In this document: in pieces, positions 17,196-21,200 of the stretch | Layout of the letters: each line of letters opens with the position of its first letter | Numbering within the stretch: position 1 is the first letter of the stretch | Origin: the human T2T-CHM13v2.0 reference genome, Homo sapiens | Length of the DNA: 64,000 bases | Direction: 5' to 3' (one strand) | NCBI RefSeq assembly: GCF_009914755.1 | Contig: NC_060935.1 | The notes under the pieces: generated by a model | The model's input: only the letters and a program-made list of their open reading frames with translations | What the model was told of the DNA's origin: nothing | The model's database searches: none | Translations under genes and position numbers: made by a program

Positions 17196-17284
17196 CTTTT
17201 CAGTATTCTTAAAGAAATTCCAACCAAGAATTTCATATCCACCAAATTAAGATTCATAAGCAAAGGAGAAATAAAATATTTTCT

Positions 17285-19396
17285 TTTTTTTCTTTTTTCT
17301 TTTTTTTAAATTTTATTATTATTATACTTTAAGTTCTAGGGTACATGCGCACAATGTGCAGGTTTGTTACATATGTATACATGTGCCACGTTGGTGTGCT
17401 GCACCCATTAACTCGTCATTTAGCATTAGGTATATCTCCTAATGCTATTCCCTCCCCCCTCCCCCCACCCCACAACAGGCTCCGGAGTGTGATGTTCCCC
17501 TTCCTGTGTCCATGTGTTCTCATTGTTCAATTCCCACCTATGAGTGAGAACATGCGGTGTTTGGTTTTTTGTCCTTGCGATAGTTTGCTGAGAATGATGG
17601 TTTCCAGTTTCATCCATGTCCCTACAAAGGACATGAACTCATCATTTTTTATGGCTGCATAGTATTCTGTGGTGTATATGTGCCACATTTCCTTAATCCA
17701 GTCTATCGTTGTTGGACATTTGGGTTGGTTCCAAGTCTTTGCTATTGTGAATAGTGCCGCAATAAACATACGTGTGCATGTGTCTTTATAGCAGCATGAT
17801 TTATAGTCCTTTGGGTATATACTCAGTAATGGGATGGCTGGGTCAAATGGTATTTCTAGTTCTAGGTCCCTGAGGAATTGCCACACTGACTTCCACAATG
17901 GTTGAACTAGTTTACAGTCCCACCAACAGTGTAAAAGTGTTCCTATTTCTCCACATCCTCTCCAGCACCTGTTGTTTCCTGACTTTTTAATGATTGCCAT
18001 TCTAACTGGTGTGAGATGGTATCTCATTGTGGTTTTGATTTGCATTTCTCTGATGGCCAGTGATGATGAGCATTTTTTCATGTGTTTTTTGGCTGCATAA
18101 ATGTCTTCTTTTGAGAAGTGTCTGTTCATATCCTTCACCCACTTTTTGATGGGGTTGTTTGTTTTTTTCTTGTAAATTTGTTTGAGTTCATTGTAGATTC
18201 TTGATATTAGCCCTTTGTGAGATGAGTAGGTTGCAAAAATTTTCTCCCATTTTGTAGGTTGTCTATTCACTCTGATGGTAGTTTCCTTTGCTGTGCAGAA
18301 GCTCTTTAGTTTAATTAGATCCCATTTGTCAATTTTGGTTTTTGTTGCCATTGCTTTTGGTGTTTTAGACATGAAGTCCTTGCCCATGCCTATGTCCTGA
18401 ATGGTATTGCCTAGGTTTTCTTCTAGAGGTTTTATGGTTTTAGGTCTAACATGTAAGTCTTTAATCCATCTTGAATTAATTTTTGTATAAGGTGTAAGGA
18501 AGGGATCCAGTTTCAGCTTTCTACATATGGCTAGCCAGTTTTCCCAGCACCATTTATTAAATAGGGAATCCTTTCCCCATTTCTTGTTTTTGTCAGGTTT
18601 GTCAAAGATCAGATGGTTGTAGATATGTGGCATTATTTCTGAGGGCTCTGTTCTGTACCATTGATGTATATCTCTGTTTTGGTACCAGTACCATGCTGTT
18701 TTGGTTACTGTAGCCTTGTAGTATAGTTTGAAGTCAGGTAGCGTGATGCCTCCAGCTTTGTTCTTTTTGCTTGGGATTGCCTTGGCGATGCAGGCTCTTT
18801 TTTGGTTCCATATGAACTTTAAAGTAGTTTTTTCCAATTCTGTGAAGACAGTCATTGGTAGCTTGATGGGGATGGCATTGAATCTATAAATTATGTTTGG
18901 CAGTATGGCCATTTTCACGACATTGATTCTTCCTACCCATGGGCATGGAATGTTCTTCCATTTGTTTGTATCCTCTTTTATTTCATTGAGCAGTGGTTTG
19001 TAGTTCTCCTTGAAGAGGTCCTTCACATCCCTTGTAAGTTGGATTCCCAGGTATTTTATTCTCTTTGAAGCAATTGTGAATGGGAGTTCACTCATGATTT
19101 GGCTCTCTGTTTGTCTGTTATTGGTTTATAAGAATGCTTGTGATTTTTGTACATTGATTTTGTATCCTGAGACTTTGCTGAAGTTGCTTATCAGCTTAAG
19201 GAGATTTTGGGCTGAGACAATGGGGTTTTCTAAATATACAATCATGTCATCTGCAACCAGGGACAATTTGACTTCCTCTTTTCCTAATTGAATACCCTTT
19301 ATTTCCTTCTCCTGCTTAATTGTCCTGGCCAGAACTTCCAAGCTGGGAGCTGTGGACCGGAGCTGTTCCTATTCGGCCATCTTGGCTCCACCCCCC
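17285..19396 (-). mobile_element. Young L1 (L1PA4-like): intact 55-nt 5' end fused to 3' ORF2, 3'UTR and poly(A); probably a spliced L1 retrocopy
   Basis: Minus strand reads GGGGGGTGGAGCCAAGATGGCCGAATAGGAACAGCTCCGGTCCACAGCTCCCAGC|TTGGAAGTTCTGGCC; poly(A) at 17285-17307; perfect 11-bp TSD aaatattttct at 17274-17284 and 19397-19407. Confidence 0.95.
17527..19341 (-). pseudogene. L1 ORF2p C-terminal remnant (RT C-terminal part and CCHC region), 605 codons with one internal stop
   Basis: ORF track entries 19126-19341 and 17527-19095 (522 aa, [17 protein letters not shown]...[18 protein letters not shown]...LIGGN) are in frame; FADD is changed to VADD; EN and N-terminal RT are absent. Confidence 0.92.
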
Positions 19397-21200
19397 AAAT
19401 ATTTTCTAGTAAACAAGCACTAAGGGAATTCATGACAATTAAACAAAACTTACAAGAGATCCTTAAGGGAGTTCGACACATGGAAATAAAAGAATGATAT
19501 CTCCTACCACAAAAACACACTTAAGTACATAGACCACATAACCTATACGACAAACACATGGTAGAAACTAAAAATCAACCAGCTAACAAATTTACAATCT
19601 ACCTCAAATATCAATATTAACCTTGAATACAAATAGTCTAAATGCCCCACATAAAAGGCATATAATGGAAACTTGAATTAAAAAAAAAAACAAGATCTAT
19701 CCATCTTCTATCTTCAAGAGATTGATCTCACATGCAATAACACACATAGGCTCAAAGTAAAGTGTTGGAAAAGATCTACCATGCAAACAAAATAAAAAAG
19801 AGCAGGGGTTGCTATTCTTATATTAGATAAAATAGACTTTAAACCAACATCAGAAAAAAAAGAAAGAATTACATAATGATAAAGGGTTCAATTGATATAT
19901 TCTAAATATATACACACCCAATATTGGAGCAATTAAGGTTCATAAAATAAATACCTCTAAACCTATAAAAAAGCTTAGAAAGCCACACAATAATGATGTG
20001 GTATTTTAACACCCCACTGACAGCATTACAGGGATCATTAAGGCAGAAAACTGACAGTCTGGAATTGAACTCAACACTTGATCAGTTAGAGCTAAGAGAC
20101 ATCTATAGAATACTCCACCCATCAATTACAGAATATACTTTCCTCTCATCAGCACACAGAACATAACTCAGGATTAACTACATGCTTGGCCATAAAGCAA
20201 GTCTCAATACATTCAAAAAATTAAAATTATACCAACCATAATATCTGAGCACAGTGGAATAAAAATAGAAATCAATACCAAGAAGAACTCTCAAAACAAT
20301 AAAGTTACATGGATATTAAAACAACTTGCTCCTGAATGATTTTGGAATAAAAAGCAAAATCAAGGCAGAAATAAAAAAAAATGTTCAAATAAATGAAAAC
20401 AGAAAAACAATATAGTAAAATCTCCAGGATACAGAAAATGCAGTATTAAGAGGGAAGTTTATAGTGCTAAGCTCAAAAAGTTAAAAAGTCCCAAGTTAAT
20501 TAACTAATGCCATGCCTAGAGGAGCCAGAAAAATTAGAAAAAATTAACTCCAAAGCTAGCAAAAGACATGAAATATATAAATCAGAGCAAAACTGAATAA
20601 AATTGAGACTCAGCAATCCATACAAAAAGTAAATGAAACCAAAAGTCAGCTTTTTGAAAGGAGAAACAAAATTGATAGACCACAAGCTATATTGACAAAG
20701 AAAAAAAGAGAGAAGATCCAAATAAGCACAACCAGAAATGATAAATGTTATGTAACAACTGATCCCACAGAAATACAAAAGATCTTCAGACTATGATGAA
20801 CACCTCTATGCCCACAAACTAGAAAGTCTAGATAAAATGAATAAATTGCAGGAAAAGTAAAACCTCCCAAGACTGAACCAGGAAGAAATGGAATCCCTGA
20901 ACAAACCAGTAACAAATTCCAAAATTGTTTCAGTAATAAAAAACACCTACCAAGAAAAAGCCCAGGACCAGATGGATTCACAGCCAAATTCAACCAGATG
21001 TATAAAAAGAGGTGGTACCATTTCTACTAAAACTGTTCCAAAAACCTGAGGAAGAGGGACTTCTCCCTAACTCATTCTATGAAGCCAGCATCATCCTGAT
21101 ACTAAAACCTGGCAGAGACATAACATAAAAAAGAAAACTTCAGGTCAATATCCTTGATGATCATAGATGCAAAAATTCTTAACAAAATATTAGCAAACCA

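What the first reader, a model, noticed from the sequence alone, without database searches (positions are those of the whole stretch)
17274..19407. Probable retrotransposed spliced L1: 5'UTR donor at ~+54 joined to an ORF2 acceptor ~3.95 kb downstream
Seen: one insertion with an 11-bp perfect TSD and poly(A) that keeps the true L1 5' end (55 nt, including the YY1 site CAAGATGGCC), then jumps between 19342 and 19341 into ORF2 (LEVLAR...). From the recalled consensus, the 5'UTR continues CCCAGC|GTGAGC, so the left break falls exactly on a GT donor. L1 5'UTR donors near +54 and +97 are described, and reported spliced integrants (SpIREs) mostly use +97 with acceptors in the 5'UTR or ORF1. The unspliced ORF2 context is visible in this window at 52406-52445: ccctctcttaccactcctattcaacatAG|TGttggaag, a pyrimidine tract plus AG. 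The observed join is 2 nt downstream of that AG (CCCAGC|TTGGAAG), so it needs a TG acceptor or a later 2-bp loss. Inference: the RNA lost ORF1, EN and part of RT, so it had to be mobilised in trans. A plain 5' truncation cannot retain the 5' end.
Basis: partly seen in the sequence, partly recalled or inferred. Interest (0 to 1): 0.85.

Follow-up and report, generated by a model that had tools for sequence, protein, structure and literature searches.

The report
Internally deleted L1 with splice-like edge
An old human L1 retrotransposon copy keeps its first 54 bases but lacks the next 3.9 kb; the gap starts at a splice-donor-like GT but does not end at a proper acceptor, so it is more likely an ordinary deletion than a spliced L1.

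Summary
A single minus-strand L1 insertion lies at 19396-17285, with 11-bp perfect target-site duplications and an A-rich tail. It joins L1 nt 1-54 directly to ORF2 nt ~4001-4003 (19342|19341).

For splicing:
- The left break sits exactly before GTGAG.
- The right break is 2 nt past a pyrimidine-tract AG.

Against splicing:
- The removed segment would end in TG, preceded by G. All 14 genomic relatives read have AGTG|TTGG at this site.
- The junction is unique in the T2T genome, and the AG version of it is absent.
- A survey of breaks at 54|55 found no canonical splice product. The same method at the known donor 97|98 found about 60.
- One catalogue of 570 L1 RNA junctions has no intron starting at 53-57.
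- Two of 59 unselected L1 5' ends carry non-splice deletions, so such deletions are common.

My odds:
- End-joining deletion after insertion: ~0.4.
- Retrotransposed aberrantly spliced RNA: ~0.25.
- Reverse-transcriptase template switch or short-RNA capture: ~0.25.

Ape orthologues, which would decide this, could not be reached with these tools. Interest is modest.

The parts
19397..19407 (-). 5' target-site duplication AGAAAATATTT
   Evidence: identical to 17274-17284
19342..19396 (-). L1 5'UTR nt 1-54 plus one extra 5' G. It includes CAAGATGGCC; the YY1-site label is recalled, not tested.
   Evidence: One search aligns it to nt 2-56 of the full-length copy L091 (locus 18-72); 852 genomic places match this 48-mer with at most 1 mismatch.
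19341..19342 (-). Blunt junction CCCAGC|TTGGAAG, joining L1 nt 54 to ORF2 nt ~4001-4003
   Evidence: No shared base at the join. The 19-mer and 28-mer across it are unique in the genome.
17527..19341 (-). ORF2 C-terminal fragment of 605 codons, starting inside the RT domain, with one internal stop at codon 72
   Evidence: translation; RVT_1 profile 136-192/205
17311..17526 (-). L1 3'UTR with AATAAA at 17312-17317
   Evidence: alignment to L091 runs to its 3' end
17285..17310 (-). A-rich tail (TTTAAAAAAAAGAAAAAAGAAAAAAA)
17274..17284 (-). 3' target-site duplication AGAAAATATTT
52406..52445 (+). The undeleted ORF2 context in an older L1 of the same window: pyrimidine tract, AG, TG, then TTGGAAG
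   Evidence: the same context is in 14 of 14 relatives

Best explanation
A full-length L1 of the L1PA3-6 age class inserted here by ordinary target-primed reverse transcription. It later lost about 3.95 kb (L1 nt 55 to ~4002) through a one-off genomic deletion repaired by blunt end joining. On this reading the GTGAG at the left edge and the AG 2 nt before the right edge are coincidences.

Shown: the single insertion, the exact breakpoints, the uniqueness of the junction, the failure of the AG rule, and the base rate of non-splice deletions.

Inferred: the timing of the deletion, that is, after integration.
For: 1. The missing segment ends in TG, not AG, in every relative read: 14 of 14, plus the window's own second L1.

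2. The junction is unique. The exact 19-mer gives 1 hit, which is the element itself. The 28-mer with up to 3 mismatches also gives only itself. The AG version of the junction, with up to 2 mismatches, gives 6 hits, all non-L1.

3. If G55 were a working donor, canonical 54/AG products should far outnumber a non-AG one. Two exclusion patterns at 54|55 gave 57 distinct places. I read 33 of them (plus this element).
- Only this element and L073 break at 54|55.
- L073 has a 4-nt CAGC microhomology and no splice sites.
- L121 is a GTGA-microhomology deletion starting at 55-59.
- The other 24 places were judged only from the six bases shown. Those strings match ones that were read and found contiguous.
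- The same method with one pattern at 97|98 gave 67 places, of which 55 read GAG|CTTT and 5 read GAG|ACCT or ACCG. These are the known SD97 classes (L016 and L017 read).

4. Non-splice deletions are common. In 59 5' ends not chosen for structure (1.5 kb each), 2 carry such deletions, equal to the 2 SD97 spliced copies. L013 lacks 273 bp with AGT microhomology. L055 lacks 1.55 kb and has filler.

5. A control position, 90|91, also gave one true discontinuity among 22 places. So 54|55 is not visibly enriched for breaks.
Against: The left break lies exactly before GTGAG. By a rough donor score built from recalled frequencies, this GT ranks 31 of 168 in a full-length copy, as good as the proven donor G98 at rank 37.

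The AG 2 nt before the right break has the most pyrimidine-rich 24 nt of all 496 AGs. It ranks 36 of 498 by a rough acceptor score, similar to known L1 acceptors at ranks 2, 18, 33 and 37.

The chance that random breaks fall before a GT this good and 0-3 nt after an AG this good is about 0.5% x 2.4%, or roughly 1e-4 per deletion. This is my estimate.

A blunt join gives no positive signature of end joining. Timing after insertion is not shown by anything here.
Confidence: 0.4

Rival explanations
1. An L1 RNA was spliced from G55U56 in the 5'UTR to the ORF2 acceptor region near nt 4000. The ~2.1-kb RNA, lacking ORF1, EN and two thirds of RT, was then retrotransposed in trans.

The 2-nt offset needs one of three extra steps:
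- exon ligation at the TG;
- a source copy with T-to-A at nt ~4001, giving AGAG;
- AG splicing followed by a 2-bp loss.
For: - The break is exact at GTGAG. All 29 other copies read are contiguous 5'UTR there, and 22 of them keep the GT.
- The donor and acceptor scores equal those of proven L1 sites.
- TG acceptors do exist next to AGs (PMC2374985).
- AGAG variants of the site exist in the genome: 13 of the 100 listed rows out of 127 variant copies.
- RNAs spliced from the L1 5'UTR can be retrotransposed in trans. L093 is 5'UTR nt 1-97 joined at the G98 donor to a non-L1 coding sequence.
- Exons ending exactly at donors, joined to L1 without a matching acceptor, are reported in bioRxiv 10.1101/2025.02.02.635956 (passages).
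Against: - The AG rule is not met in any of the 14 relatives.
- This TG is G-TG at 2 nt from the AG. All 39 published TG acceptors are C/T/A-TG at 3 nt or more, and functional ones are about 0.01% of candidate TGs.
- The A variant is rarer than the G variant (13 against 31 of the 100 listed), so there is no sign of a lineage carrying it.
- No closest relative exceeds 96% identity, though only 40 of 12,235 candidates were scored.
- There are no canonical 54/AG integrants, and none of the 67 places at SD97 reaches ORF2.
- Table S11 of PMC13221650 has no intron start at 53-57 and no intron end at 3999, 4001, 4003 or 4004.
- Trans mobilisation is inefficient. Larson 2018 describes low levels (passage).
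Confidence: 0.25
2. The insertion was born deleted, without exon ligation. While copying an L1 RNA, ORF2p left the template at nt ~4003 and resumed at nt 54 of the same or another L1 RNA. Alternatively it jumped onto the 3' end of a short L1 5' RNA, either a free 5' exon cut at G55 or a short promoter-proximal transcript. It then ran to the cap and integrated.
For: - Both pieces are in sense orientation inside one TSD pair, with an extra 5' G.
- A blunt join fits end-to-end template jumping. That property of non-LTR reverse transcriptases is recalled, not tested.
- L073 shows an L1 5' piece ending at nt 50-54 placed inside another L1's ORF2, flanked by a 32-nt re-copied segment. It looks like a double template switch.
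- Template switching is one accepted model for U6/L1 and other chimeras (10.1101/2025.02.02.635956).
Against: - There is no microhomology and no predicted RNA duplex bringing the two breakpoints together. Duplex energies are no better than 27% and 84% of shuffles.
- L073 was found only because I searched at 54|55. A control position gave a discontinuity too, so a hot spot at 54 is not shown.
- In the plain version the GT and the near-AG are again coincidences.
- The free-5'-exon version needs a donor at 55, for which there is no independent evidence.
Confidence: 0.25

Closest known systems
SpIREs, spliced integrated retrotransposed elements (Larson et al. 2018, PMC5860796; abstract, sections 7 and 21, and passages read)
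   Same: An L1 with TSDs and a poly(A) tail that keeps its true 5' end and lacks an internal segment starting at a GU in the 5'UTR.
   Different: - Published SpIREs all use G98U99 and AG acceptors at 621, 789, 852 or 975.
- They recur as independent copies: 116 + 4 + 11.
- They keep ORF2.
- Here the donor would be G55, the acceptor is not AG, the copy is unique, and ORF1, EN and most of RT are gone.
Ordinary internal deletions in genomic L1 copies (examples L013 and L055)
   Same: One-off loss of internal sequence from an element with an intact 5' end. Such deletions were as frequent as SD97 SpIREs in my sample of 59.
   Different: The two examples show microhomology (AGT) or filler. This one is blunt and its edges look like splice sites.
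Chimeric L1 insertions made by template switching or RNA joining, such as U6/L1 and exon/L1 (bioRxiv 10.1101/2025.02.02.635956, passages read)
   Same: A sense-oriented 5' partner joined to a 5'-truncated L1 inside one TSD pair. Some 5' partners end exactly at a splice donor while the L1 side lacks an acceptor.
   Different: Here the 5' partner is L1's own first 54 nt. No family of such chimeras was found.
TG 3' splice sites in U2-type introns (Szafranski et al. 2007, PMC2374985; Table 1 and passages read)
   Same: A TG close to a pyrimidine-tract AG.
   Different: The published sites are C/T/A-TG, 3-28 nt from the AG. This one is G-TG, 2 nt downstream.

Membership tests
SpIRE (retrotransposed spliced L1) | Hallmarks of target-primed reverse transcription: TSDs, poly(A), true 5' end | tested here: met
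   11/11 TSD, A-rich tail, 5' end with extra G
SpIRE (retrotransposed spliced L1) | The missing segment begins with a GU donor | tested here: met
   22 of 29 other copies read GTGA(G/C) directly after CCCAGC. Rough score rank 31 of 168, against 37 for G98.
SpIRE (retrotransposed spliced L1) | The missing segment ends with an AG acceptor | tested here: not met
   AGTG|TTGG in 14 of 14 relatives and in the window's other L1. The segment ends in TG.
SpIRE (retrotransposed spliced L1) | Independent copies with the same junction and different TSDs | tested here: not met
   only the element itself; the AG version is absent (6 chance hits, none L1).
SpIRE (retrotransposed spliced L1) | The junction or its splice sites are seen in L1 RNA | tested here: inconclusive
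   PMC13221650 Table S11 (570 junctions, four cell types) has no intron start at 53-57. The terms 3999, 4001, 4003 and 4004 are absent. '4002' occurs once, as an L1 ID. '4000' occurs 18 times, but only 2 passages were shown, both L1 IDs. STAR disfavours non-canonical junctions. Belancio 2006/2008 are not held.
SpIRE (retrotransposed spliced L1) | No full-length copy at the orthologous site | not testable with these tools
   No primate genome other than the window's own is held.
TG alternative 3' splice site | Y/A-TG within 3-28 nt of a functional AG | tested here: not met
   Table 1: this site is G-TG at 2 nt
Template-switch chimera (U6/L1-like) | A sense 5' partner and a 5'-truncated L1 inside one TSD pair | tested here: met
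Template-switch chimera (U6/L1-like) | The 5' partner ends at the natural 3' end of a discrete RNA, recurrently | tested here: inconclusive
   One further case ends at nt 50-54 (L073). A control position also gave one discontinuity.
Post-integration deletion | A full-length ancestral allele | not testable with these tools
   Orthologues are unavailable. The base rate is supported by 2 of 59 sampled 5' ends.

The most novel reading that the evidence does not exclude
The spliceosome cut an L1PA RNA at an undescribed 5'UTR donor (G55). The 54-nt 5' exon was then joined 2 nt past the strongest pyrimidine-tract AG of ORF2. This could have happened by second-step slippage onto a non-AG site, or by ORF2p jumping from a spliceosome-blocked 3' exon onto the nearby free 5' exon. 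The resulting RNA, which encodes neither ORF1p nor a complete ORF2p, was mobilised in trans. That would make it a SpIRE of a new kind and a fossil of error-prone L1 splicing.
Probability: 0.25. Interest if true: 0.55.

Novelty: new member of a known kind. Interest (0 to 1): 0.3.

Why it matters
If the splice reading were true, it would add a second 5'UTR donor and a deep ORF2 acceptor to L1's splice map. It would also show trans-mobilisation of an L1 RNA that encodes no complete L1 protein.

As it stands, the element is a caution. The masked-repeat list supplied with the finding starts this repeat at 19343, so it looks like a plain 5'-truncated L1. A one-off internal deletion can mimic a splice product closely. 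The AG rule, recurrence, and a same-method control at the known donor are what separate the two.

Tried and rejected
- **Source element.** The three other copies sharing the exact 48-nt 5' end (L009-L011) are only 95-96% identical downstream and have AGTG|TTGG. The best of the 40 scored relatives are 96% identical. The local variants GGAC and TTAAG are each shared by tens of copies but never together.
- **AG(C/T)GT microhomology join.** It would give one extra G compared with the observed sequence, so I rejected it as a one-step route.
- **RNA stem bridging the breakpoints.** It is no better than shuffles.
- **Hot spot at 54|55.** Not supported after the control at 90|91.
- **Recurrent strings after CCCAGC** (GAGATT, GAGACT, AAGATT, GTGAAT and others). 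They looked like a possible junction class. Of the 20 places read, 18 proved to be plain contiguous older-subfamily 5'UTRs; the other two are L121 and L123 (see Noticed in passing).
- **Literature on a donor near +54.** One full-text search found nothing relevant. Belancio 2006 and 2008 are not held.
- **Pfam on the 475 residues after the internal stop.** No family found.
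Full report
**What is there**

The element reads on the minus strand. AGAAAATATTT at 19407-19397 is followed by GGGGGGTGGAGCCAAGATGGCCGAATAGGAACAGCTCCGGTCCACAGCTCCCAGC at 19396-19342. The next base, 19341, begins TTGGAAGTTCTGGCC...

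From 19341 the sequence translates in frame as LEVLAR..., 605 codons to a stop at 17529-17527, with one internal stop at codon 72. The first 71 residues match Pfam RVT_1 profile positions 136-192 of 205 (E 1.8e-6, 28.3 bits against a 29.6 cut-off). The join therefore lies about two thirds of the way through the RT domain.

A 3'UTR with AATAAA (17317-17312), an A-rich tail (17310-17285) and a second AGAAAATATTT (17284-17274) close the element. Both L1 pieces lie inside one perfect 11-bp duplication, so this is one insertion event. The masked-repeat list supplied with the finding starts this repeat at 19343, so the 54-nt 5' piece is unmasked and the element looks like a plain 5'-truncated L1.

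**Breakpoints**

I used one full-length genomic copy with its own TSDs (L091) purely as a ruler. The element aligns to its nt 1-55 and 4001-6027 at 93% and 94.7% identity, and about 3,945 nt are missing.

In the numbering of L1.3, the donor of Larson 2018 is G98U99. The RNA-seq acceptors 4032 and 4035 fix the ORF2 register. On that scale the left piece ends at nt 54 and the right piece starts at about nt 4003.

- Left side: all 29 other genomic copies of the 5' end run on past CCCAGC as contiguous 5'UTR. Twenty-two continue with GTGA(G/C). The other seven carry A, C or AA at that spot.
- Right side: 10 of the best-matching relatives, the 3 copies sharing the exact 48-nt 5' end, and L091 all read ...CCCTCTCTCACCACTCCTATTCAACA(T/C)AGTG|TTGGAAG. 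The window's older L1 at 52406-52445 reads the same.

The join is therefore blunt, with no shared base. The missing segment starts GT and ends TG, 2 nt after a TAG that follows a long pyrimidine tract.

**Age**

The best of the 40 scored relatives (of 12,235 candidates) are 96% identical over 2,042 nt. The 5' end is of the GGAGCC/CTCCGGTC type. The 3'UTR is of the AAATGACGAGTTAATGGG type, which I recall as L1PA3-6. This assignment was not tested against a subfamily library.

**How splice-like are the edges?**

In L091 the sense strand has 167 GTs. By a rough donor matrix built from recalled textbook frequencies, the GT at 55 (scored on an undamaged copy) ranks 31 of 168. The proven donor G98 ranks 37.

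The AG before the right break has the highest pyrimidine fraction (0.75 over 24 nt) of 496 AGs. It ranks 36 of 498 by a rough acceptor matrix. Known L1 acceptors rank 2, 18, 33 and 37.

So both edges resemble working L1 splice sites. Random breaks would fall before a GT this good, and 0-3 nt after an AG this good, about 1e-4 of the time. This is my estimate.

**Why I nevertheless rate splicing below one half**

1. The AG rule fails. TG acceptors are real but rare, about 0.01% of candidate TGs, and always occur beside an AG (PMC2374985). All 39 listed are C/T/A-TG at 3-28 nt from the AG. This site is G-TG at 2 nt.

2. The other rescues are each roughly a one-in-a-thousand step.
   - An AGAG variant of the site exists in 13 of the 100 listed rows out of 127 copies varying at that T. 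This is fewer than the G variant (31), so there is no sign of a lineage.
   - A later 2-bp loss exactly at the join would be needed otherwise.

3. There is no recurrence. The junction is unique in the T2T genome. The AG version is absent: its 6 hits with up to 2 mismatches are all non-L1.

4. A working donor at 55 should have left canonical products.
   - I searched for copies whose 24 nt before nt 55 are intact but whose following bases differ from the 5'UTR at two set positions. The two patterns together should catch about 81% of arbitrary junctions. They gave 57 places.
   - I read 33 of them (plus this element). Only this element and L073 break at 54|55.
   - L073 is a 5' piece set inside another L1's ORF2, with CAGC microhomology and a 32-nt flanking duplication, and it is not a splice.
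   - L121 is a ~200-nt deletion between two GTGA repeats.
   - The remaining 24 places were judged only by six bases that match strings read and found contiguous.
   - A further 95 places with C or T at nt 55 were point variants in all 30 read.
   - The same method with one pattern at 97|98 returned 67 places: 55 GAG|CTTT and 5 GAG|ACCT or ACCG, the known SD97 classes (L016 and L017 aligned). None of the six odd ones read reaches ORF2.

5. RNA evidence is lacking. Table S11 of PMC13221650 (570 junctions on L1.3, four cell types) has no intron starting at 53-57. The terms 3999, 4001, 4003 and 4004 are absent. Its 5'UTR sense donors include 74, 98, 122, 132 and 142-161. This catalogue is small and its aligner disfavours non-canonical introns.

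6. Plain deletions are common. Among 59 5' ends not chosen for structure (1.5 kb each), 2 are SD97 SpIREs and 2 carry non-splice deletions. L013 lacks 273 bp with AGT microhomology. L055 lacks 1.55 kb and has filler. A control search at 90|91 also turned up one true discontinuity among 22 places, so 54|55 is not visibly a hot spot.

**Weighing**

Taking these rough rates together, the expected genome-wide number of random deletions that look this splice-like is of the order of 0.01. The expected number of non-AG products of a donor that has left no canonical product is the same or smaller. Neither is excluded. My estimates:

| Explanation | Probability |
|---|---|
| End-joining deletion after insertion | ~0.4 |
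| Retrotransposed aberrantly spliced RNA | ~0.25 |
| Born-deleted cDNA made by template switching, including capture of a short 5' L1 RNA | ~0.25 |
| Other | remainder |

I found no RNA duplex bridging the breakpoints and no identifiable source element.

**Limits**

- No primate genome other than the window's own is held, so the decisive orthologue test was not possible.
- The two Belancio papers that might list a donor near +54 are not held. One full-text search for such a donor found nothing relevant.
- Larson 2018 names only G98U99 as donor in the sections and passages I read.
- The splice-site scores rest on matrices recalled from memory, not on MaxEntScan.
- Pattern counts in the own-genome search are stated by the tool to be lower bounds for repeats.

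Noticed in passing
L073 1440-1560 (G000:C5:83433763-83436790): Inside the ORF2 of an older L1PA sits a ~60-nt piece that is the true 5' end of an L1 (nt 1 to 50-54). It is flanked by a 32-nt duplication of the host ORF2 and joined through a CAGC microhomology. It looks like a double template switch or capture of a short 5' L1 RNA.
   Followed up: partly
L093 (G000:C6:140011230-140011470): L1 5'UTR nt 1-97 is joined exactly at the G98 donor to a non-L1 open reading frame starting MALEQNQSTDYYYEENEMNG... I recall, without testing, that this resembles the atypical chemokine receptor ACKR4. It is probably a retrocopy of an L1-promoter-driven spliced chimeric mRNA.
   Followed up: no
L102 (G000:C6:105271006-105271122): L1 5'UTR ends at about nt 92 and is followed by A16 and then unrelated DNA. 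It is possibly a retrocopy of a very short polyadenylated L1 5' transcript.
   Followed up: no
L121 (G000:C19:45568706-45568835): A ~200-nt 5'UTR deletion between two GTGA(G/C) repeats (nt 55-59 and ~255). It is microhomology-mediated and lies right next to the GT in question.
   Followed up: partly
L013 and L055 (G000:C1:30285394-30288441; G000:C3:191451815-191454841): Two non-splice internal deletions in otherwise full-looking L1 5' regions. One removes 273 bp with AGT microhomology. The other removes 1.55 kb (nt ~891-2438) and has a few filler bases.
   Followed up: partly
L092 (G000:C4:15799400-15799640): The SD97 donor is joined to a 5'UTR-like segment that does not align to the ruler copy L091. 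It may be a SpIRE class specific to subfamilies with the longer 5'UTR.
   Followed up: no
L123 (G000:C9:39287755-39287884): A diverged L1 5'UTR that is contiguous across nt 54|55 but then reads ...ctgag|ctttggtgacag at the G98 donor. It looks like a mutated SD97/622-type spliced copy.
   Followed up: no
window 19343-19396: The masked-repeat list supplied with the finding stops at 19343. The 54-nt 5'UTR piece is therefore unmasked, and the element would be read as an ordinary 5'-truncated L1 in routine annotation.
   Followed up: yes
L064 (G000:C4:180029352-180032378): A ~314-nt insertion at 5'UTR nt ~328, with about 15 nt of the 5'UTR repeated on both sides. It is Alu-sized but was not identified.
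   Followed up: no
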